Below, in pieces: positions 4,321 to 41,715 of a stretch of 64,000 nt of DNA; the first letter of the stretch is position 1; each line of letters opens with the position of its first letter. The notes under the pieces are model-generated. The model saw only the letters and a program-made list of their open reading frames with translations, did not search any database and was not told the DNA's origin. Source of the stretch: Dehalococcoidia bacterium (lineage in GTDB: Bacteria; Chloroflexota; Dehalococcoidia; Plut-88900); contig OZ240219.1 in the NCBI GenBank assembly GCA_965197645.1, positions 2,816,001-2,880,000 on the forward strand, given 5' to 3'. The position numbers and the translations under genes are program-made.

Positions 4321-5616
4321 CTAGGAGGCGGACTCGGGGTTGCCGGCGCCCACAGGTTCCAACTGCATTTCACTTCTGTTCGGAGACCGCATAAACAGGG
4401 CCCCGAAGACCAACGACAGACCGGCGAAGGATAGGATCACCATCGTAAGCTTCAGGTCGCCGGTAATCTCTTGGAGTATTCCCGCCAGTGCGGGCCCAAT
4501 CGCTCCTCCGGCCCACATGCTCATCTCGTAAAACGCTACGGCTACCGCTATCTCTCGAGGCTTGATCCCCCGGAGCTGGAAGGGTACCGTCATCAGCACG
4601 GGGAAAAACGACCATCCCGTACCGTTCAGCACGTTCAACACCCATAGCAACGGCACCGATCCTGTTAGCGACATGGCGGCGGAGGTGGAAGAGGTCAGGA
4701 TCCCGCAAAGCACCAGAACGTGTCGGCCTAGGCCCCATCGGGCTGCGGCGAATGCGAAGATTAGGCCGAACACCGATGACATTATTCCACCGAGCGCCAG
4801 CATCGTCCCCGACGTCACCAGGGATATGTCGTAGTAGTCTAGCATCAGGGTAGGCCAGAAGGTGGCGATGCTCATCCACAGCATGTTTGCCCCGACCAGA
4901 CCCATTGACATCCCCCACAGCTCCCGGTATCGAAGTAGACTGCGAAGCGGCGTTCCCTCCTGGGAGCTGGCTGCTTGACGGTATCGCCTAGTGATCCGTT
5001 CTCTTCCGAAGATCTGCCAGGCCACACCTATGGCCAGGGTTGCTATCGCGTATATATAGAAAGCAGTCCTCCAGCCATCATCGAACCACAGCAGCATGTA
5101 GGGCGTCACAAAGAACCCGATGCCGATGGCTACCCCTATAGTCCCGTTCAACACGCCGTTGACCAGCACTATCTCTTCTCGGGGGACCCATTGCTGGGTC
5201 AACATCGCCCGCGCCGGTTCTCTCGCCATGCCTGCCACACCAAAAAACACCCTTCCGACCAGCAGCAAGGCAAACACCGGCGCCCAACCCTGGACGAATA
5301 GGAAGAAGGCGGCCGCTGCCAGGGTGATGGACACCACCAGCTTGGCATTGAGGCGGGATATCCACCAGCCCAGCGGTACGGAAACTACAAGATTGGCCAG
5401 TATAGCCGACGACCCGAGCCATCCCTGCTCGGAAGGCGACAGGCCTAGATCATTCGAGATCGAGGGCAACAGTACCCCCAAGTTGAACAGCACCAGGAAG
5501 TTGGCCAGCGTAGCCAGGCTTAGAATCGAGATTATGACAACTCGATAAGGCTCGGGCTTAACCTCGCCACCCACTGCTTGACCGACGTCATCCGTCTGTT
5601 CTATACCCTGGGACAT
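4321..5616 (-). CDS. MFS transporter (paralog 3)
   Basis: Hydrophobic 431-aa ORF, close paralog of 5977-7299. Confidence 0.88.
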   Translation of the reverse strand: MSQGIEQTDDVGQAVGGEVKPEPYRVVIISILSLATLANFLVLFNLGVLLPSISNDLGLSPSEQGWLGSSAILANLVVSVPLGWWISRLNAKLVVSITLAAAAFFLFVQGWAPVFALLLVGRVFFGVAGMAREPARAMLTQQWVPREEIVLVNGVLNGTIGVAIGIGFFVTPYMLLWFDDGWRTAFYIYAIATLAIGVAWQIFGRERITRRYRQAASSQEGTPLRSLLRYRELWGMSMGLVGANMLWMSIATFWPTLMLDYYDISLVTSGTMLALGGIMSSVFGLIFAFAAARWGLGRHVLVLCGILTSSTSAAMSLTGSVPLLWVLNVLNGTGWSFFPVLMTVPFQLRGIKPREIAVAVAFYEMSMWAGGAIGPALAGILQEITGDLKLTMVILSFAGLSLVFGALFMRSPNRSEMQLEPVGAGNPESAS

Positions 5617-35017: not shown

Positions 35018-35473
35018 CTAGCCTTCCAGGGCTTGGAGGAGGCCGGTAACCACCTCGTTCACCTCTCTGCCGTCGGCCTTGCCCTTGAGCTGGCCCATAA
35101 GCTTACCCATCACCTTGCCTTTGTCGCCAGGGCCCTGGGCGCCCACCTCGCCGATTACCCGTTGGGCAACCTCGCTGATCTCCTCGCGGGACATCTGCTC
35201 GGGCATGTAGGCCATAATCACCGCCAGCTCCGCCTCTTCCCTCTCCAGCAAGTCGGTCCGGTCCGCCTTGCGAAACTCCTCGATGCTCTCCTTGCGGCTC
35301 CTCACCTCCCGAGATACGGCCTGGACCAGTTCCGCATCGTCCAGCGGCTCGCCCTTGGCTTTCTCGGCGTAAAGAATCGACGACTTCAGCATCCGCAATG
35401 CGGAGCGTCTCACGTCGTCCTTGCTTCGGACCGCGTCCAGCAGTTCTGCTTGTAGCTGTTCCTGTAGGGACAT
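35018..35473 (-). CDS. GatB/YqeY domain protein
   Basis: LRMLKS, RKESIEEF, YMPEQMS, GKVMG, KGKADG; follows rpsU. Confidence 0.92.
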   Translation of the reverse strand: MSLQEQLQAELLDAVRSKDDVRRSALRMLKSSILYAEKAKGEPLDDAELVQAVSREVRSRKESIEEFRKADRTDLLEREEAELAVIMAYMPEQMSREEISEVAQRVIGEVGAQGPGDKGKVMGKLMGQLKGKADGREVNEVVTGLLQALEG

Positions 35474-35525
35474 AGAAAAGACCGGGAAACCCCGGCTTGG
35501 AATAGATTAGAGTTGACCGCCCAGC

Positions 35526-35708
35526 CTAGGTGCGCCTGAGGCTCTTCCGCCTTCTGGCCGCTTCCTTCTTCTTGCGCTTGATGCTGGGCTTTTCGAAATA
35601 CTCTCGACGGCGCGCCTCGGACAGTATGCCATTCTGCTGGACTTTCTTGTTGAATCTCTTCAGGAGGCTCTCGAAATTCTCGTCTCGTCCTAGCCTTACC
35701 TCTGCCAC
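35526..35708 (-). CDS. rpsU: 30S ribosomal protein bS21
   Basis: ENFESLLKRFNKKV...RRREYFEKPSIKRKKK. Confidence 0.96.
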   Translation of the reverse strand: MAEVRLGRDENFESLLKRFNKKVQQNGILSEARRREYFEKPSIKRKKKEAARRRKSLRRT

Positions 35709-35809
35709 ATCGGATTCCCCCTTTCCAGACAGTTTGAGGCTTTCCCACCTCTATCGGCGATTATAGGCACACCCGAAAAAATGTGTCAAGGAAACTGGCA
35801 ATGATGCAC

Positions 35810-35838
35810 TTGACACACCCTGATAGCTGTGATACGAT
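35810..35838 (+). promoter_or_regulatory. Sigma70-type promoter for the transposase, -35 inside the left TIR
   Basis: TTGACA-17 nt-TACGAT. Confidence 0.6.
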
Positions 35839-35867
35839 TTCCTTGTAGTCAAAACGAGGTATCACAG

Positions 35868-36866
35868 ATGCAATCAGAGAAGCTAACCTTTCAAGCGGTG
35901 TTGCGGTGGGATGAGGAACAGTGCAGGCATTTTCTAGCCTCAATGCGGTGGCCTCAAGGTATCCGTTGCCCCAAGTGCGGCGCTACAGACGAACCTTACA
36001 CCATCACCCGCAAAAAGCCAGGCAAAAACAAGGTAACATCCCTCTACAAGTGCCGGGCTTGTAAGCGCCAGTTCAGCGCCACCCTCGGAACCATCTTTGA
36101 AGACAGCCACATTCCCCTCAACAAGTGGCTGGCGGCCTTATTCCTGATGGTGTCCAGCAAGAAGGGCATCAGTGCCCACCAGCTTTACCGCCTTCTTGAT
36201 TTGGGTTCCTACCGTACCGGGTGGTTCATGGCCCATCGTATACGGGAAGCTATGCGGGAGAAGGGATTGCTTGAACCTCTGTCCGGCGATGTAGAGGCCG
36301 ACGAAACGTACTTGCACCCTCGCCGCCGGCGTGGAAGCCCTGGATACCATGAGCGTGTCCAGGATGAGATTGAGATGGGCATTCGCCCGAAGCCCAGGCG
36401 GAAAGGCCCCTACGAGGGCAAGGCGGTTGTGTTCGGCATGCAAGAGCGTGATGCGAATGTTAGGACGGTGCATGTGCCCGACGCAACTCGCCAGACACTG
36501 CACCCGATAATCCGGCGGTGGATCGACTCGTTAAACACACGGCTGATTACGGACCAGCACCCGGCCTATCGTTTAGCGAAACGGTTCGTGAAGCACGAAA
36601 CCATCAACCACGAAACCGAGTACGTCCGGGGCGATGTGCACACGCAGAATATCGACAACTACTGGTCGATCTTCAAGAGGGGCATCTACGGGGTGTTCCA
36701 CCACATTGGGGAGGACTACCTACCCAACTACCTCAGCGAGTTTGACTTTAGGCGGAACCGGCGGAAGATATCGGACGTGGAGCGGTTCGTTAGTCTGATG
36801 GGCCAGCTTCAGGGCCGTCTTCTGTGGTACTGCAAGACTCCCCAGCCGGCGAATCCTTACGCGTAG
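35868..36866 (+). CDS. IS1595 family transposase (Zn ribbon + DDE_Tnp_IS1595)
   Basis: RWPQGIRCPKC, YKCRACKRQFS, GTIFEDSHIPL, KKGISAHQL, VEADETY, ITD, HTQNIDNYW, YLSEFDFR; GAGGT RBS. Confidence 0.95.
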   Translation: MQSEKLTFQAVLRWDEEQCRHFLASMRWPQGIRCPKCGATDEPYTITRKKPGKNKVTSLYKCRACKRQFSATLGTIFEDSHIPLNKWLAALFLMVSSKKGISAHQLYRLLDLGSYRTGWFMAHRIREAMREKGLLEPLSGDVEADETYLHPRRRRGSPGYHERVQDEIEMGIRPKPRRKGPYEGKAVVFGMQERDANVRTVHVPDATRQTLHPIIRRWIDSLNTRLITDQHPAYRLAKRFVKHETINHETEYVRGDVHTQNIDNYWSIFKRGIYGVFHHIGEDYLPNYLSEFDFRRNRRKISDVERFVSLMGQLQGRLLWYCKTPQPANPYA

Positions 36867-36960
36867 CGTCATCATCCCGCACTAGCGCGGTCACCGCTTC
36901 CTCGAACGATAGGTGCGCCAGCGAGATTCGTGTTTCGGCCTCGCTCCGCCTTTCAGTCAT
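36790..36960 (-). CDS. Small passenger ORF convergent on and overlapping the transposase 3' end
   Basis: GGAGG RBS before ATG 36960; RISLAHLSFEEAVTALVR helix. Confidence 0.5.
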   Translation of the reverse strand: MTERRSEAETRISLAHLSFEEAVTALVRDDDATRKDSPAGESCSTTEDGPEAGPSD

Positions 36961-36994
36961 TGATCGTGCCTCCCCATTCATGTTACCCTAAATA

Positions 36995-37071
36995 GCGAAC
37001 GGCGACCCGAGCCTACTCGTCTGCAGGTTCCGACACCTGGTGTTAGCAGCACCGGGCGGGTCGCCGTTCAC
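36995..37071 (+). ncRNA. Candidate structured RNA directly upstream of the allo-tRNA
   Basis: Perfect 13-bp stem GAACGGCGACCCG (36997-37009)/CGGGTCGCCGTTC (37057-37069) enclosing hairpin CCTGGTG-TTAGCAG-CACCGGG. Confidence 0.55.
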
Positions 37072-37073
37072 TT

Positions 37074-37164
37074 GGAAGGAGACCTAAGCTGGTGCTTAAT
37101 GCGGGCTTAAAACCTGTAGGGGCCGTGCCCACAGCGCGGTCAGGTTCGATTCCCTCTCCTTCCG
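37074..37164 (+). tRNA. Non-canonical tRNA-Sec-like 9/3 'allo-tRNA', anticodon UAA
   Basis: 9-bp acceptor GGAAGGAGA/TCTCCTTCC, discriminator G; D-stem TAAGC/GCTTA with TGGT loop; anticodon loop CTTAAAA; 8-bp variable arm; GGTTCGATTCC T-arm; no encoded CCA. Confidence 0.8.
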
Positions 37165-37186
37165 CTCTATCAAAAGGAGTTTAATC

Positions 37187-37663
37187 ATGCACGATGCAAG
37201 CAACAATAACGGGCAAACATCCAAAATGACTGTACAAGCAGATATGCACAGTGAAGCGGTCATTGTGGAACTTCAGGCGTTGTTGCGGCAACAAGAAACG
37301 GAGCGGCAAGCTGCTGAGCGCAAGATGGTTGAAGCCCGTGATACGGTGGCGGCAAACGAGCAAGCCATCGCTCACATCCAAGCCACCATCGACATGTACC
37401 GAGAGAAACACGGATTGCCTATTCCCAAAGACGAACAAGACCCTGTACTGGCGTCAGAATATGCGCGCATGGGGCCGACCGCATTGGTCAAGACATGGGC
37501 CGGCAGACACAACGGCGAAGTGATGGTCAAGGACCTTACTAAAGTTGGGCTAAAGGCTGGCGTGTTTCAAAAGTACCGCAACGGGTCAAGCAGCATCTAT
37601 TCCGTGCTGAAACGAGGCCCCTATGAACAGATCAAGCCAGGGCATTTTCGACAGCGACGCTAA
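37187..37663 (+). CDS. Passenger protein: N-terminal coiled coil plus possible winged-helix C-terminus
   Basis: AAGGAG RBS; heptad-like ELQALLRQQETERQAAERKM...; C-terminal SIYSVLKRGPYEQIKPGHF. Confidence 0.65.
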   Translation: MHDASNNNGQTSKMTVQADMHSEAVIVELQALLRQQETERQAAERKMVEARDTVAANEQAIAHIQATIDMYREKHGLPIPKDEQDPVLASEYARMGPTALVKTWAGRHNGEVMVKDLTKVGLKAGVFQKYRNGSSSIYSVLKRGPYEQIKPGHFRQRR

Positions 37664-37664
37664 C

Positions 37665-38207
37665 TTACTGGCGTTCCACGTCCACAGAAAACATCACGGA
37701 TTCAGTGGAGGGCAGGTAGTACAGGGTGAGCCACGCTTTCCCCTTCTTAGTCTGTAACTTTTTCTGGGTAAGGTTAAGGTCGTCTATCTTTGACACCACC
37801 CAGGTTTCCCCCTCCCGCCACTGACTCCCCATCGCTATCTGTAGCATCTTGCGCACAAGCGGGTCGATTATGGCCAGTGTGCTTGCCTGCAACCGGAACG
37901 TCGCCTCGATAGCATTAACACCCTCGCTCGGCCCGAATATGTCTACCGTGATATCCCCGGTCCGTGTCTTGGTGCTATACCAGTCGTTCGTATGCTTGTT
38001 GAGCGGCATCAACCCAATGCTCAACTGCTTGAAGCTGCTAAAGGCATCTTGGCGGCTGACGCCAAAATCGCCAGTGGTTGCTAGCGGGGTTGGTGCCGCT
38101 GTATAAGCCGGCGTGGGTGGGACGTACGGCTTGGCCTCGCAAGCTACCGCTCCAGTCATTAGGATCGCGATGGCTAGAATGGCAAGAATCCGAATCGGCT
38201 TGAACAT
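37665..38207 (-). CDS. Passenger lipoprotein of unknown function
   Basis: MFKPIRILAILAIAILMTGAVAC signal/lipobox followed by a P/T-rich linker. Confidence 0.7.
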   Translation of the reverse strand: MFKPIRILAILAIAILMTGAVACEAKPYVPPTPAYTAAPTPLATTGDFGVSRQDAFSSFKQLSIGLMPLNKHTNDWYSTKTRTGDITVDIFGPSEGVNAIEATFRLQASTLAIIDPLVRKMLQIAMGSQWREGETWVVSKIDDLNLTQKKLQTKKGKAWLTLYYLPSTESVMFSVDVERQ

Positions 38208-38461
38208 GTGGAACCCCCTTGCAAGTACGGATTCGGCACTTGCTACAGTCGCCGCGTCCATGTCAGCCTCGCAAGGGGGCACGTGGCCAAACCTATACAG
38301 GCTGACTGGAGACGACTGTAGCGTCGCCAATGTAACTTACGGGGGTGGGTGTGTCAAATGACTAATTGCCAGGAAACTGGCCTTGAACCCGCTTGGAGGC
38401 CCTCATATACTGGGACCGGAGCACTATCAAGCCGACAGCGAGTATCAAAGAGGAGGACGAG

Positions 38462-38716
38462 ATGCCCGAGGAGGAGATTGGCAGCGTGTCCGATTTCTTC
38501 GCACGTCCAGTTGTGGCCGGCATAGAGTTGACCAGCTCTCTCAAAGTGGGCGATACGATCCACATCAAAGGCCACACCACGGACCTGCAGTTCACCGTCG
38601 CATCGATGCAGATAGACAACGACAGTGTTGAAGAGGCTTCGGCGGGGCAGGCCGTTGGCATCAAGCTATCCGATCGGGCCAGAAGGGGAGATAAGGTCTA
38701 CAAGGTCGTCGAGTAG
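38462..38716 (+). CDS. Small beta-barrel 'translation elongation factor-like' (EF-Tu domain II / U32 C-terminal-like) protein
   Basis: IGSVSDFF..PVVAGIEL...LKVGDTIHIKGHTTD...SMQID...VGIK; GAGGAGG RBS. Confidence 0.8.
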   Translation: MPEEEIGSVSDFFARPVVAGIELTSSLKVGDTIHIKGHTTDLQFTVASMQIDNDSVEEASAGQAVGIKLSDRARRGDKVYKVVE

Positions 38717-40086: not shown

Positions 40087-41409
40087 ATGGCCAAGCTGCG
40101 CATAGTCCACTATCTCAACCAGTTCTTCGCCGGTGTTGGGGGCGAAGAGGAGGCGAACACGCCTCCAGGCGTCAAGGCCGGCCCCGTCGGCCCGGCACAG
40201 GCTCTCCACAACATTCTCTCCACCGACGGCGCCGGCGAGATTGTCGCCACCGTCTACTGCGGAGACAACTACATCACCGAGCACGGCGAAGAGGCGCTGG
40301 AACAGCTACTGGGCCTCATAAAGCCTCTCGCGGCCGACGTGGTCGTGGCCGGGCCCTCCTTCGGTTCCGGGCGATACGGCCTGGCCTGCGGTCAGGTCTG
40401 CGCCGCGGTCAACGAGCAGCTGGATATCCCGGTGGTGTCCGGAATGCACAAGGACAGTCCGGGCGCCCAGGAGTACCGCACCTCAGCCTACATCGCCTCC
40501 ACCACCGAGACCGCCATCGGCATGTCCGATGCCATCGCCACCATGGCGAGGCTGACAACCAAGCTGGGCCGCGGCCAGGAACTGGGCCCCGCCGACGAGG
40601 AGGGCTACGTTCCTACTGGACGGGTCAAGAACGAGTTCTCGGACCGCACCATCGCCACCCGGCTGGTGGACATGCTCTTGAAGAAGGTCAAAGGCGAACC
40701 CTTCGAGACCGAGTGGCCTCTCCCGGCCATGGAGAAGATTACCCCCTCCCCTGCCTTGGCCGACCTGTCCAACGCCAAGATCGCCCTCGTCACCGAAGGC
40801 GGCGTGGTGCCCAAGGGCAACCCGGACAAGATACCCGGTGGCTGGGCCGAGCACTGGGCCCGGTACAACATCAGCGAGACCGAGAGGCTAAACCCCGAGA
40901 ACTGGCAGTCGGTACACGGCGGTTTCGACACCACCGACGTCAACCGGGATCCGGACAGGGTCGTACCCCTGGATGCTCTTCGGGACCTGGAGAAGGAAAA
41001 GGCCGTCGGCAAGGTCCACGACTACGTGTATACCACCGTCGGGAACCTGGGCTACGTATCCAACATGCGGAAGTTCGGCAAGGAGATAGCCAAGGAGCTG
41101 TTGGATGCCAACGTGGATGGGGTTATTCTCACCGGCACCTGAGGCACCGGCACCCGCAGCGGAGCTGCGATGGCCAAGGAGCTGGAGAGAGCCGGCCTCC
41201 CCACGGCATTCATCACCTCGATGGTGCCTCTGGCCCAGGGAATGGGCGCCAATCGGATAGTTCAGGGCAAGGCCGTCACCCACACCACGGGCGATCCCTC
41301 CCTGGTTCCCGAAGGAGAAAAGGCCTTTCGCAAGGGTCTGGTGGAAAAGGCCCTCAAGGCGCTCCAGACCGAGACCAAGGAGCAGGAGGTGTTCTGGGCG
41401 GAGGGGTAG
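40087..41409 (+). CDS. Glycine/betaine/sarcosine/D-proline reductase family selenoprotein B (GrdB-like), Sec at TGA 41140-41142
   Basis: VHYLNQFFAGVGGEE, GRYGLACG, VTEGGVVPKGNPD; ORF continues in frame through TGA as ILTGT-U-GTGTRSGAAMAKELERAG; hairpin follows. Confidence 0.9.
41143..41175 (+). promoter_or_regulatory. Candidate bacterial SECIS of the GrdB-like gene
   Basis: CGCAGC-GGA-GCTGCG hairpin; G-starting loop begins 19 nt after UGA. Confidence 0.65.
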
Positions 41410-41449
41410 AGACTAGGGCGACGCCTAAAACGTCACCACCCGGCTGCTA

Positions 41450-41715
41450 GGGCCTGTTCACACTCTCGCTTCCAATGTCATTCCGAAACGGAGGGCAGCG
41501 TAGTGAGGAATCTATGGCCCATGTTCCCAGACCATTTTGCGTATCGTGTGTAGGCGGAACCGTTGGACCAGATGCGTAATCCCGAGATTATTAGGGTCCG
41601 CCGACCCTCCGACGGAATCGGGCCGTGATTCCCGACAACCCTCCTGGATTCCTCACTGCGTTCGGAATGACATCTAAGCTCCACAGATGACTCGGGCCTT
41701 AATGTGAAGGGGCCC
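41450..41715. mobile_element. MITE-like element with 15-bp imperfect TIRs, TA duplication and internal REP-like inverted repeats
   Basis: TA|GGGCCTGTTCACACT ... AATGTGAAGGGGCCC|TA; internal ATGTCATTCCGAA (41475)/TTCGGAATGACAT (41673) and AGTGAGGAATCT/GGATTCCTCACT. Confidence 0.7.

What the first reader, a model, noticed from the sequence alone, without database searches (positions are those of the whole stretch)
37074..37164. tRNA-Sec-like 9/3 allo-tRNA (anticodon UAA) carried inside an IS1595 element
Seen: a 91-nt cloverleaf with a 9-bp acceptor stem (37074-82/37155-63), discriminator G, a 5-bp D-stem with a 4-nt UGGU loop, a 6-bp anticodon stem, loop CU-UAA-AA, an 8-bp variable arm and a 3-bp T-stem (one A-C mismatch) closing UUCGAUU. 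Established: 12-bp 8/4 or 9/3 tRNA-Sec-like molecules have been described as allo-tRNAs; G73 plus a long variable arm are seryl-tRNA synthetase determinants, whereas tRNA-Leu uses A73. Inference: a transposon-borne tRNA that could insert Ser at UUA Leu codons (mobile mistranslation), or one serving a non-translational role. It is not the canonical selC: anticodon UAA rather than UCA, and 12 bp rather than 13.
Basis: partly seen in the sequence, partly recalled or inferred. Interest (0 to 1): 0.85.

Follow-up and report, generated by a model that had tools for sequence, protein, structure and literature searches.

The report
Transposon-carried allo-tRNA reading a leucine codon
This is a real, unusually shaped transfer RNA gene of the known "allo-tRNA" kind, which looks built to carry serine but reads the leucine codon UUA, and it sits as cargo inside a small jumping-gene element.

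Summary
Window 37074-37164(+) folds as described: 9-bp acceptor stem, 5-bp D-stem with a UGGU loop, 6-bp anticodon stem, anticodon UAA, 8-bp variable arm, 3-position T-stem with one A-C mismatch, and G73. Rfam tRNA-Sec scores it 50.8 bits (cut-off 47); ARAGORN misses it. The genome has its own canonical selC, tRNA-Leu(UAA) and four tRNA-Ser genes, so this is an extra gene.

Relatives with the same architecture exist: a metagenome contig, a Pirellulaceae MAG, a Terriglobia MAG and a genome of the same class. On 4 sequences, 17 of 31 pairs change on both sides.

It fits the published (9/3) allo-tRNA class. Mukai et al. 2017 showed that a Silvibacterium (9/3) allo-tRNA-UAA inserts Ser at UUA in E. 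coli.

It lies inside a roughly 2.58-kb IS1595-type element (35795-38372) bounded by 26-nt imperfect inverted repeats. A second locus, whose transposase is 82% identical, repeats the module: transposase, small antisense ORF, leader hairpin, tRNA.

Charging and decoding are inferred, not shown. Verdict: a new member of a known kind, with an unusually clean case of carriage by a transposon.

The parts
35795..35820 (+). Left terminal inverted repeat of the IS1595-type element. It contains a sigma-70-like promoter (TTGACA-17-TACGAT, starting at 35810) that faces the transposase gene.
   Evidence: It is a 26-nt inverted repeat with 38347-38372, 21 of 26 matching. The alignment score is 32 against 18.1 +/- 2.1 in shuffles, and 0 of 300 shuffles reach it. 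Similarity to locus L147 begins here. The promoter comes from the scan.
35829..36866 (+). IS1595-family (ISXO2-like) DDE transposase, 345 aa, with an N-terminal zinc ribbon.
   Evidence: Pfam DDE_Tnp_IS1595 at 1.6e-33 and Zn_ribbon_IS1595 at 1.9e-14. It is single-copy in the genome. 7995 homologues were found at E<=1e-10, the best at 88% identity.
36790..36981 (-). Small antisense ORF (63 aa as listed). Its conserved core lies outside the transposase gene and its tail overlaps the transposase 3' end. Function unknown.
   Evidence: In core residues 16-37 compared with L147, 7 codons are identical, 13 differ synonymously and 2 differ non-synonymously. 4 other homologues were found, at least two of them on contigs of the same length as contigs that hold close transposase homologues. 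There is no Pfam or NCBIfam match.
36994..37072 (+). Y-shaped leader hairpin that ends one base before the tRNA 5' end.
   Evidence: Folding energy -45.8 kcal/mol, z = -5.17, 0 of 200 shuffles. L147 has a hairpin of different sequence at the same place, ending 3 nt before its tRNA (z = -4.37).
37074..37164 (+). (9/3) allo-tRNA gene with anticodon UAA and discriminator G73. No CCA is encoded.
37187..37663 (+). ORF158, starting 23 nt after the tRNA and preceded by an AAGGAG ribosome-binding site. Function unknown, with a possible HARE-HTH-like C-terminus.
   Evidence: There is no Pfam or NCBIfam family. The ESM Atlas gives only a lead: hypothetical proteins, with one set of clusters carrying PF05066 on 19% of members. 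It is not similar to the ORF at the same place in L147.
37665..38330 (-). ORF221, cargo ORF of unknown function. An internal Met is followed by a hydrophobic, signal-peptide-like stretch and a Cys.
   Evidence: reading of the translation only. There is no Pfam or NCBIfam match. A promoter-like site at 38357-38329 on the minus strand lies inside the right repeat.
38347..38372 (-). Right terminal inverted repeat.
35789..35799 (.). Left copy of an 11-nt direct repeat (AGGAAACTGGC). The right copy is at 38371-38381. Both copies overlap the tips of the inverted repeats, so this is a possible target-site duplication with ambiguous ends.
   Evidence: Read. Its chance level was not tested.

Best explanation
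The gene at 37074-37164 is a member of the (9/3) allo-tRNA class. These are tRNA-Sec-like tRNAs with a 9-bp acceptor stem, a 3-bp T-stem, a long D-stem and a long variable arm. This one has serine-type identity features and the leucine anticodon UAA.

It is a passenger in a roughly 2.58-kb IS1595-family element (35795-38372). The element also carries its transposase, a small antisense ORF, a leader hairpin and two cargo ORFs.

The inferred mechanism runs as follows:
1. The tRNA is transcribed with, or just behind, the transposase from the promoter inside the left repeat.
2. RNase P cuts it free directly after the leader hairpin.
3. One of the host's nucleotidyltransferases adds the CCA end.
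4. The host seryl-tRNA synthetase charges it with serine.
5. EF-Tu delivers it to the ribosome, where it competes with the host's own tRNA-Leu(UAA) and puts Ser at UUA, and possibly UUG.

UUA is the host's rarest leucine codon, at about 1 per 1000 codons. The damage to host proteins would therefore be small, and UUA-richer genes would be hit harder.

Shown here: the fold, its covariation, membership of the class by structure, and its position within the element. Inferred only: transcription, processing, charging and decoding.
For: Structure and family:
- Rfam tRNA-Sec scores it 50.8 bits against a cut-off of 47.
- My single-sequence covariance model R1 scores the window at 116.9 bits, L147 at 76.1, L091 at 66.5 and L099 at 41.7. 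The best canonical tRNA-Leu among 83 sources scores 36.6.
- 17 of 31 pairs change on both sides, and 0 of 500 shuffles reach this.
- Contigs of DNA runs X1 and X3 show further variants with changed acceptor stems: GGGAGCAGA, and GGGGGCAGA paired to a 3' strand beginning UCUG.

tRNA hallmarks kept in all 4 aligned relatives: G18-G19 in a UGGU D-loop, T-loop UUCGAUU, a 7-nt anticodon loop with U33 and A37, and G73.

Identity:
- G1-C72, G2-C71, A3-U70 and G73 are the same as in 4 of 4 host tRNA-Ser genes.
- The 5 canonical host tRNA-Leu genes have A73.
- There is no G3-U70, the alanine determinant.

Precedent: a Silvibacterium bohemicum (9/3) allo-tRNA-UAA inserted Ser at UUA in E. coli and was toxic when induced (PMC5389517, Results read).

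Host capacity: the host has two PolyA_pol/CCA-type nucleotidyltransferase genes, at 93.4 and 39.9 bits.

Element:
- Inverted repeats match 21 of 26, and 0 of 300 shuffles reach that score.
- GC is 0.51-0.59 across the element against 0.608 for the genome.
- A second locus, L147, has a transposase 81.6% identical. It repeats the promoter, the small ORF, the hairpin and the allo-tRNA(UAA) in the same order. Similarity starts at the left repeat and ends at the tRNA 3' end.

Codon usage: TTA occurs 762 times in 779,724 codons of long ORFs, or 0.98 per 1000, the rarest Leu codon.

Weak hint of RNA: one 176-nt contig of an RNA-seq library (X6) matches 36984-37128 with no differences. The tool warns that this does not show transcription.
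Against: - The first T-stem pair is an A-C mismatch, which leaves 2 standard pairs. L147 and L091 have G-C there and L099 has G-U.
- The cloverleaf is not the predicted MFE fold. Predicted pair probabilities are about 0.1 for the anticodon stem and 0.04 for the T-stem.
- CCA is not encoded, whereas the 4 tRNA-Ser, 5 canonical tRNA-Leu and selC genes I printed all encode it.
- The consensus scan found no promoter-like site between the transposase stop and the tRNA.
- The element is single-copy.
- The L147 copy needs a bulged U in its acceptor stem.
- The element's own transposase has 3 TTA codons in 346 (8.7 per 1000). Codon 104 is I, L or M in 50 of 50 homologues, so an active Ser-tRNA(UAA) would damage its own transposase.
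- No homologue column suggests that TTA stands for Ser. Codons 235 and 249 are simply variable positions.
- The linkage is narrow. 0 of 29 inspected loci with more distant transposase homologues (42-61% identity) hold such a tRNA. One of those loci, L169, comes from the unpublished genome G243.
- Nothing here shows expression, charging or decoding.
Confidence: 0.55

Rival explanations
1. The tRNA-shaped RNA works in cis for the element and not in translation. On this reading it is a processing signal. RNase P cuts the transposase-tRNA co-transcript at the tRNA 5' end. That leaves the transposase mRNA ending in the stable leader hairpin, protected from 3' exonucleases, and frees the downstream ORF message. 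It could equally be some other regulatory RNA of the element.
For: - The hairpin abuts the tRNA 5' end in both loci although its sequence differs.
- No promoter-like or terminator-like site was found on the plus strand between the transposase and the tRNA.
- ORF158 starts 23 nt after the tRNA. In the same-class locus L188 an ORF starts 22 nt after an allo-tRNA(UAG).
- The T-stem is weakened.
Against: - A pure processing signal would not need a canonical 7-nt anticodon loop. The loop is CUUAAAA in 3 of 3 UAA members, and U33 and A37 are kept in all 5 members seen.
- It would not need serine-type acceptor features and G73 in every member.
- Allo-tRNAs of the same build also sit without any IS1595 transposase in L091 and L188.
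Confidence: 0.25
2. It is a decaying or neutral relic. On this reading, a once-active allo-tRNA was picked up by the element, is now weakly folded and silent, and is kept only because the element is young.
For: - A-C mismatch in a 3-bp T-stem.
- Bulge in the L147 acceptor stem.
- Single copy in the genome.
- The family is rare. Apart from the window's own genome, 1 of 150 genomes sampled from the class and 0 of 150 sampled from the phylum hold an allo-tRNA under model R1.
- Mukai et al. describe an allo-tRNA pseudogene overlapping a transposon-related ORF.
Against: - All other stems are intact, and they show compensatory rather than disruptive changes between loci whose transposase DNA is only 73% identical.
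- The tRNA is 78% identical, with invariant loops.
- An RNA-library contig is identical over the hairpin and the 5' half of the tRNA, while the 31 nt of that contig upstream of the match do not fit the window.
Confidence: 0.15
3. It is a leucine-accepting extra tRNA-Leu(UAA), or a mutated duplicate of selC in which the anticodon changed from UCA to UAA.
For: - The anticodon differs from UCA by one base.
- The anticodon arm resembles that of the host selC.
- The element sits next to a selenoprotein gene cluster.
Against: - It has G73, whereas the 5 canonical host tRNA-Leu genes have A73.
- Its acceptor branch is 12 bp, not the 13 bp of selC.
- The host selC scores only 35.9 bits on R1.
- UAA is shared by relatives in another phylum.
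- The host already has canonical genes for both tRNAs.
Confidence: 0.05

Closest known systems
Silvibacterium bohemicum (9/3) allo-tRNA-UAA (Mukai et al. 2017, PMC5389517; Results read, figures and supplements not seen)
   Same: 9/3 acceptor branch, tRNA-Sec-like D-arm, long variable arm, Ser-type discriminator, anticodon UAA, and detection through the tRNA-Sec covariance model.
   Different: The host lineage differs. The paper lists Clostridia, Proteobacteria and Acidobacteria, whereas this genome's class appears to lie in Chloroflexota, which I inferred only indirectly. This copy has an A-C mismatch in the T-stem. It sits inside a repeat-bounded IS1595-type element. I could not compare the sequences because the published ones are in figures and supplements that I could not read.
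Edaphobacter strain C40 allo-tRNA-UAU pseudogene overlapping a transposon-related ORF (same paper, section read)
   Same: An allo-tRNA physically linked to a transposon gene.
   Different: That copy is described as a pseudogene with several disrupted pairs, and it overlaps the ORF. This one has all its stems except for one mismatch. It lies in its own intergenic slot, and the arrangement is repeated in a second locus.
Bacterial tRNA-Sec (selC, Rfam RF01852)
   Same: Long acceptor stem, long D-stem with a 4-nt loop, 6-bp anticodon stem, long variable arm and G73.
   Different: The anticodon is UAA, not UCA. The acceptor branch is 12 bp, not 13. CCA is not encoded. The genome has its own selC (66.4 bits), selA and selB.
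Phage and bacterial (8/4) tRNA-Ser and related irregular tRNAs
   Same: Non-7/5 acceptor branch and a GCUGGUGC-type D-arm. 45 stretches in viral contigs match that pattern.
   Different: In the 10 alignments I saw, those have 8/4 geometry and anticodons GGA, GCU or GUA. Their best R1 score is 45.1 bits, and none of the 10 has anticodon UAA.
IS1595-family elements with passenger genes (Siguier, Gagnevin and Chandler 2009; I saw only the title, in a reference list)
   Same: DDE_Tnp_IS1595 transposase with a zinc ribbon, terminal inverted repeats, and extra genes between the ends.
   Different: The cargo here is a tRNA gene. Within the searches listed under Tried and rejected, I did not find that described for this family.

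Membership tests
(9/3) allo-tRNA (Mukai et al. 2017) | 12-bp acceptor branch split into a 9-bp acceptor stem and a 3-bp T-stem | tested here: met
   The acceptor stem has 9 Watson-Crick pairs. The T-stem has 3 positions, of which 2 are G-C and one is A-C here. In the relatives that position is G-C, G-C and G-U.
(9/3) allo-tRNA (Mukai et al. 2017) | tRNA-Sec-like D-arm (long stem, tetraloop), long anticodon stem, long variable arm | tested here: met
   5-bp D-stem with a UGGU loop, 6-bp anticodon stem, and 8-bp variable arm with a 5-nt loop.
(9/3) allo-tRNA (Mukai et al. 2017) | [quoted passage not shown] | tested here: met
   RF01852 scores it 50.8 bits against a cut-off of 47. The anticodon is UAA, and a separate selC exists in the genome.
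(9/3) allo-tRNA (Mukai et al. 2017) | Discriminator G73 or U73 plus a long variable arm (SerRS elements), with a non-serine anticodon. The anticodons reported for the 9/3 type are Arg AGA/AGG, Leu UUA/UUG/CUA/CUG and ochre. | tested here: met
   G73 and anticodon UAA (Leu UUA). The first three acceptor pairs and G73 equal those of 4 of 4 host tRNA-Ser genes.
(9/3) allo-tRNA (Mukai et al. 2017) | Accepted by SerRS and used by the ribosome | not testable with these tools
   There is only the published E. coli result for another member.
Bacterial tRNA-Sec (selC) | Anticodon UCA and a 13-bp (8/5) acceptor branch | tested here: not met
   The anticodon is UAA and the branch has 12 positions (9 acceptor pairs plus 3 T-stem positions, one an A-C mismatch). 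The 8/5 rule for bacteria is from my own knowledge and from the paper's text.
tRNA-Leu (type II) | A73 discriminator and 7/5 geometry | tested here: not met
   It has G73 and 9/3 geometry. The 5 canonical host tRNA-Leu genes have A73. That A73 is the LeuRS determinant is from my own knowledge.
IS1595 family insertion sequence | DDE_Tnp_IS1595 transposase with an N-terminal zinc ribbon | tested here: met
   Pfam matches at 1.6e-33 and 1.9e-14.
IS1595 family insertion sequence | Terminal inverted repeats enclosing the transposase | tested here: met
   35795-35820 against 38347-38372 matches 21 of 26, and 0 of 300 shuffles reach the score. The left end coincides with the start of homology to L147.
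   An 11-nt direct repeat overlaps the repeat tips, so the exact ends and the length of the duplication are ambiguous. No empty site was found. The relatives are too distant, and no contig joins across the element.
IS1595 family insertion sequence | Evidence of mobility (several copies, or the same unit in different contexts) | tested here: inconclusive
   There is one copy in this genome. The left two-thirds of the unit recurs on another contig, L147, with different flanks. The right end of L147 was not found on its 4820-nt contig.

The most novel reading that the evidence does not exclude
The element is a mobile modifier of the genetic code that is used in genetic conflict. Its tRNA would turn the host's rarest leucine codon, UUA, into serine. 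Because the host has SelA and the (9/3) D-arm is a published SelA binding site, it might partly turn UUA into selenocysteine instead. GC-rich host genes would be barely touched. UUA-richer incoming DNA such as phages and plasmids, and the element's own transposase, would be mistranslated much more. Relatives of the tRNA sit beside a Phd/PIN toxin-antitoxin pair and ArdC (L091), and beside Abi_C, Vsr and Dcm genes (L188), which fits a defence or conflict setting.
Probability: 0.1. Interest if true: 0.85.

Novelty: new member of a known kind. Interest (0 to 1): 0.5.

Why it matters
Allo-tRNAs are the best natural candidates for tRNAs that deliberately break the codon table, but their biology in native hosts is unknown. 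This case offers a complete, single-contig genome in which an almost intact (9/3) allo-tRNA(UAA) sits in a delimitable transposon.

The genome also provides the context needed for testing. It has its own canonical tRNA-Leu(UAA), a full selenocysteine machinery and a very rare UUA codon. The natural role of these tRNAs therefore becomes testable with one small DNA fragment (35795-38372) and the host's SerRS.

The repeated module of transposase, small ORF, hairpin and tRNA also suggests that the tRNA is functionally tied to the element and is not random cargo. For genome annotation, it is a reminder that such genes are missed by ARAGORN and can be mistaken for a second selC.

Tried and rejected
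1. BLAST of the tRNA with 14 nt upstream and 11 nt downstream (window 37060-37175) against 100 relatives gave only 22-31-nt T-arm matches at E 0.003-0.007. No homologue was found. There was no match in the phage collection.

2. I looked for an empty site among genomes of the same family. The purL-purQ-yqeY-rpsU block is conserved, but what follows rpsU differs in each of the 3 genomes read, so the insertion boundaries could not be checked.

3. My first pattern scan of genome contigs was too loose. Most of these were canonical tRNA-Leu(UAA) genes and only L091 and L099 were useful. More relatives in that collection may have been cut off.

4. The strict metagenome pattern gave 2 stretches. L146 is an unrelated irregular tRNA-like sequence.

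5. I tested whether TTA codons in the transposase are recoded to Ser, and rejected the idea. Codon 104 is I (28), L (19) or M (3) in 50 homologues. Codons 235 and 249 are variable.

6. I tested whether ORF158 and the L147 ORF at the same place are homologous. This is not supported: BLASTP gives E 0.11, and 51 of 500 shuffles score as high.

7. I looked for a right inverted repeat just after the tRNA and found none (best score 12). The right end of L147 was also not found.

8. A 14-nt complementarity between the tRNA (37116-37129) and the transposase mRNA (36400-36413) turned up. It is not kept in L147, so I rejected it as chance.

9. Searches for closer transposase homologues in the order (12 genomes) and the phylum (401 genomes) found none above 61% identity.

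10. The viral contig scan gave 45 stretches. The best R1 score was 45.1 bits, and the 10 alignments shown have anticodons GGA, GCU or GUA. No allo-tRNA(UAA) was seen.

11. Sequencing runs: the parts of the stretch without cover in X5 and X6 say nothing. No contig joins across the element.

12. Literature: the search for 'allo-tRNA' found 22 papers, 20 of them listed. The search for 'IS1595' with 'passenger gene' found 18. The search requiring any two of allo-tRNA, transposase, insertion sequence and Chloroflexi returned 8 listed rows, none of which holds 'allo-tRNA'. I found no description of an IS1595 element carrying a tRNA, but these searches are narrow.

Full report
OBSERVATION

- The acceptor stem has nine Watson-Crick pairs (37074-82 with 37155-63), followed by a CC linker.
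- The D-stem is 5 bp with a UGGU loop.
- The anticodon stem is 6 bp with loop CUUAAAA, so the anticodon is UAA.
- The variable arm is 8 bp with a 5-nt loop.
- The T-arm has three stem positions (A-C, G-C, G-C) around UUCGAUU.
- The discriminator is G.

Rfam's tRNA-Sec model matches it end to end at 50.8 bits (gathering score 47). It is the only Rfam match in the window, both at gathering thresholds and in a laxer scan of 35400-38500. ARAGORN reports no tRNA in the window.

The sequence folds better than all 200 shuffles (z = -3.79). However, the cloverleaf at -40.0 kcal/mol is 1.6 kcal/mol above an alternative MFE fold.

IT IS AN EXTRA GENE, NOT selC AND NOT tRNA-Leu

The window lies in a 3.21-Mb single-contig genome. 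ARAGORN and Rfam find a canonical selC there (anticodon UCA, 66.4 bits), a canonical tRNA-Leu(UAA), four tRNA-Ser genes and a tmRNA.

The host also has selA (547.7 bits, cut-off 267.9) and selB (346.8 bits, cut-off 242.25). A grdB-like gene 3 kb downstream has an in-frame TGA at codon 352. The host therefore uses selenocysteine through its normal selC.

The candidate shares G1-C72, G2-C71, A3-U70 and G73 with all four host tRNA-Ser genes. The five canonical host tRNA-Leu genes have A73.

The tRNA-Ser, canonical tRNA-Leu and selC genes I printed all encode their CCA end, and the candidate does not. Two PolyA_pol-family nucleotidyltransferase genes are present, so CCA addition is possible in principle.

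RELATIVES AND COVARIATION

BLAST found nothing in 100 relatives or in phages.

Pattern scans of public collections found three relatives:
- L091, from a Pirellulaceae MAG, has the same 9/3 build and anticodon UAA.
- L099, from a Terriglobia MAG, has an 8-9 bp acceptor stem and anticodon UUA, which reads the ochre codon.
- L147, a metagenome contig, has anticodon UAA and a nearly identical variable arm.

Rfam scores these at 58.9, 44.9 and 49.3 bits respectively.

I built a covariance model, R1, from the window sequence and its cloverleaf. It scores the window at 116.9 bits, L147 at 76.1, L091 at 66.5 and L099 at 41.7. The best canonical tRNA-Leu among 83 sources scores 36.6.

On the four aligned sequences:
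- 96.6% of cells are paired.
- 17 of 31 pairs change on both sides.
- No shuffle of 500 reaches this.
- Sliding the partners leaves 1-4 such pairs.

The sample is small and the alignment is model-fitted, but the compensatory changes are plain in every long stem.

Contigs of two DNA runs that hold this region show further variants. These have the same core and changed acceptor stems, including one visible compensatory G-C to C-G swap.

Scans with R1 covered 150 genomes sampled from the class and 150 from the phylum. They found selC genes (5 and 8 hits, partly the same genes in both samples; all of those I read have anticodon UCA) and one more (9/3) allo-tRNA. That one is in genome G036 of the same class and has anticodon UAG. 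The family is therefore real but rare.

WHAT IS ALREADY KNOWN

Mukai et al. 2017 (PMC5389517; I read the outline and the Results, not the figures or supplements) defined allo-tRNAs as tRNA-Sec-like tRNAs. They have 8/4 or 9/3 acceptor branches, long D-stems and variable arms, G73 or U73, and mostly non-serine anticodons.

For the 9/3 type the paper lists Arg, Leu (UUA/UUG/CUA/CUG) and ochre anticodons. It showed that a Silvibacterium bohemicum (9/3) allo-tRNA-UAA inserts Ser at UUA in E. coli and is toxic when induced.

The paper also notes allo-tRNAs near toxin-antitoxin systems, and a pseudogene overlapping a transposon-related ORF. A review repeats this (PMC7609411, passages read).

A later paper states that the long D-stem of (9/3) allo-tRNAs is bound by SelA, and that such tRNAs came from soil or marine read data (PMC7590224, passages read).

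Every structural feature that defines the class is met here. Only the activity cannot be tested with these tools.

THE TRANSPOSON

The ORF at 35829-36866 is an IS1595/ISXO2-type DDE transposase with a zinc ribbon. It is single-copy in the genome.

A 26-nt imperfect inverted repeat, matching 21 of 26, links 35795-35820 with 38347-38372. Its score of 32 compares with 18.1 +/- 2.1 in shuffles, and 0 of 300 shuffles reach it.

Each repeat holds an inward-facing TTGACA promoter-like site. An 11-nt direct repeat overlaps both tips. GC is 0.51-0.59 across the segment against 0.608 for the genome.

The unit of about 2.58 kb contains:
- the transposase;
- a small antisense ORF;
- a very stable Y-shaped hairpin (36994-37072, z = -5.17) that ends one base before the tRNA;
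- the tRNA;
- ORF158, starting 23 nt later behind an AAGGAG site;
- ORF221 on the other strand.

Locus L147 carries a transposase 81.6% identical (73% at the DNA level). It has the same promoter, the same small antisense ORF, a hairpin of different sequence at the same place, and the allo-tRNA(UAA). In the core of the small ORF, 13 codons differ synonymously and 2 non-synonymously.

Similarity between the two loci begins at the left repeat and ends at the tRNA 3' end. The downstream ORFs are unrelated.

Three caveats remain: the exact ends and the target duplication are ambiguous, no empty site was found, and L147's right end is not on its contig.

The linkage is narrow. None of 29 inspected loci with more distant homologues of the transposase (42-61% identity) has such a tRNA. 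One of these loci is from the unpublished genome G243. 4 of the 33 non-self matches were not given a locus of their own.

The other allo-tRNAs sit in different mobile or defence contexts:
- L091 lies beside Phd/PIN, ArdC and RadC-like genes.
- L188 lies beside HTH_36, Vsr, Dcm and Abi_C genes.

HOW IT MOST LIKELY WORKS

The main reading has these steps, all inferred:
1. The tRNA is co-transcribed with the transposase. The scan found no promoter-like or terminator-like site on the plus strand between them.
2. RNase P releases it directly after the hairpin.
3. It receives its CCA end.
4. The host SerRS charges it with serine.
5. It decodes UUA.

UUA is the rarest leucine codon of this genome: 762 of 779,724 codons in long ORFs, or 0.98 per 1000. 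Low-level Ser insertion would therefore cost the host little.

Several points count against a fully active tRNA:
- the A-C mismatch in an already short T-stem;
- the missing CCA;
- the single copy;
- the bulge in the L147 copy;
- the three TTA codons in the element's own transposase, one at a position that is I, L or M in 50 of 50 homologues.

The only expression hint is one 176-nt contig from an RNA-seq library. It matches 36984-37128 with no difference, while the 31 nt of that contig upstream of the match do not fit the window. The tool states that this does not prove transcription.

Rival readings:
- A cis-acting processing or stabilising signal for the element (0.25). The conserved hairpin-tRNA junction favours it. 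The conserved anticodon loop, and the occurrence of such tRNAs away from any transposase, count against it.
- A neutral, decaying passenger (0.15).
- A Leu-accepting tRNA or a selC derivative (0.05). G73, the 12-bp branch and the relatives in other phyla all contradict this.

VERDICT

The object is a (9/3) allo-tRNA(UAA), which makes it a new member of a known kind. It lies in a lineage not listed in the original paper. The class appears to belong to Chloroflexota. I infer this only from source names such as 'Chloroflexi bacterium' on moderately related transposases, and it is not shown.

The added value is a delimitable IS1595-type carrier with a repeated module of transposase, small ORF, hairpin and tRNA, in a complete genome that also has selenocysteine machinery. 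Function remains inferred.

Supplementary files of the papers could not be read and may already list this sequence.

Noticed in passing
window 36790-36981 (-): A small ORF antisense to the transposase 3' flank is under purifying selection. In its core, 13 codons differ synonymously and 2 non-synonymously between the window and L147. It has 4 other homologues and no family match. It may be an unrecognised accessory gene of this IS1595 subgroup.
   Followed up: partly
window 36994-37072 (+); L147 3734-3779: A very stable hairpin abuts the tRNA 5' end in both loci. The sequences differ (z = -5.17 and -4.37). Its role is unknown; it could protect the mRNA 3' end, or act as a processing site or attenuator.
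   Followed up: partly
window 40087-41460 (+): The grdB-like gene has an in-frame TGA at codon 352 (…VILTGT-U-GTGT…) and continues for about 88 more codons. It is a selenoprotein gene of a glycine/sarcosine/betaine reductase cluster, just right of the element.
   Followed up: partly
window 38393-38716 (+): A 107-aa ORF made of little more than an EF-Tu domain 2-like fold (weak matches: Pfam GTP_EFTU_D2 at 1.9e-4, NCBIfam selB at 2e-4). It starts 21 nt outside the right repeat and lies upstream of the grdE-like gene.
   Followed up: no
L178 4114-4204 (-) = genome C1:904114-904202: ARAGORN calls an 89-nt 'tRNA-Leu(GAG)' with no encoded CCA, a short D-loop, a 6-bp anticodon stem and a 3-bp T-stem. 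Rfam gives no match at E<=0.01, and R1 scores it 30 bits. It could be a second irregular, allo-like tRNA or a false call.
   Followed up: partly
L179 3932-4003 (-) = genome C1:1714430-1714502: A 73-nt tRNA with a short variable arm, anticodon UAG (a Leu codon reader) and no encoded CCA. RF00005 scores it 48.2 bits. It is another non-standard tRNA carrying a leucine anticodon in the same genome.
   Followed up: no
L188 1501-1587 (-) (genome G036, same class): A (9/3) allo-tRNA with anticodon UAG. An HTH_36/DnaD_N-like ORF starts 22 nt after it, and Vsr, a C-5 methylase fragment and an Abi_C protein are nearby.
   Followed up: partly
L091 2010-2094 (-) (Pirellulaceae MAG): A (9/3) allo-tRNA(UAA) next to a Phd/YefM-PIN toxin-antitoxin pair, an ArdC-like anti-restriction protein and a RadC-like ORF. 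There is also a weak sRNA-Xcc1 match at 5160-5245 (43.6 bits, below the cut-off of 53).
   Followed up: partly
L099 6713-6797 (+) (Terriglobia MAG): An allo-tRNA with anticodon UUA, a potential ochre suppressor. Rfam tRNA-Sec scores it 44.9 bits, below the cut-off.
   Followed up: no
L184 and L189 (genome G025): One small genome of the same class (1.5 Mb) holds two selC-like genes with anticodon UCA, on two contigs.
   Followed up: no
window 35829-36866: The transposase has 3 TTA codons in 346, about nine times the genome rate. All three are at the same positions in the L147 copy, although the two genes are only 73% identical at the DNA level.
   Followed up: yes
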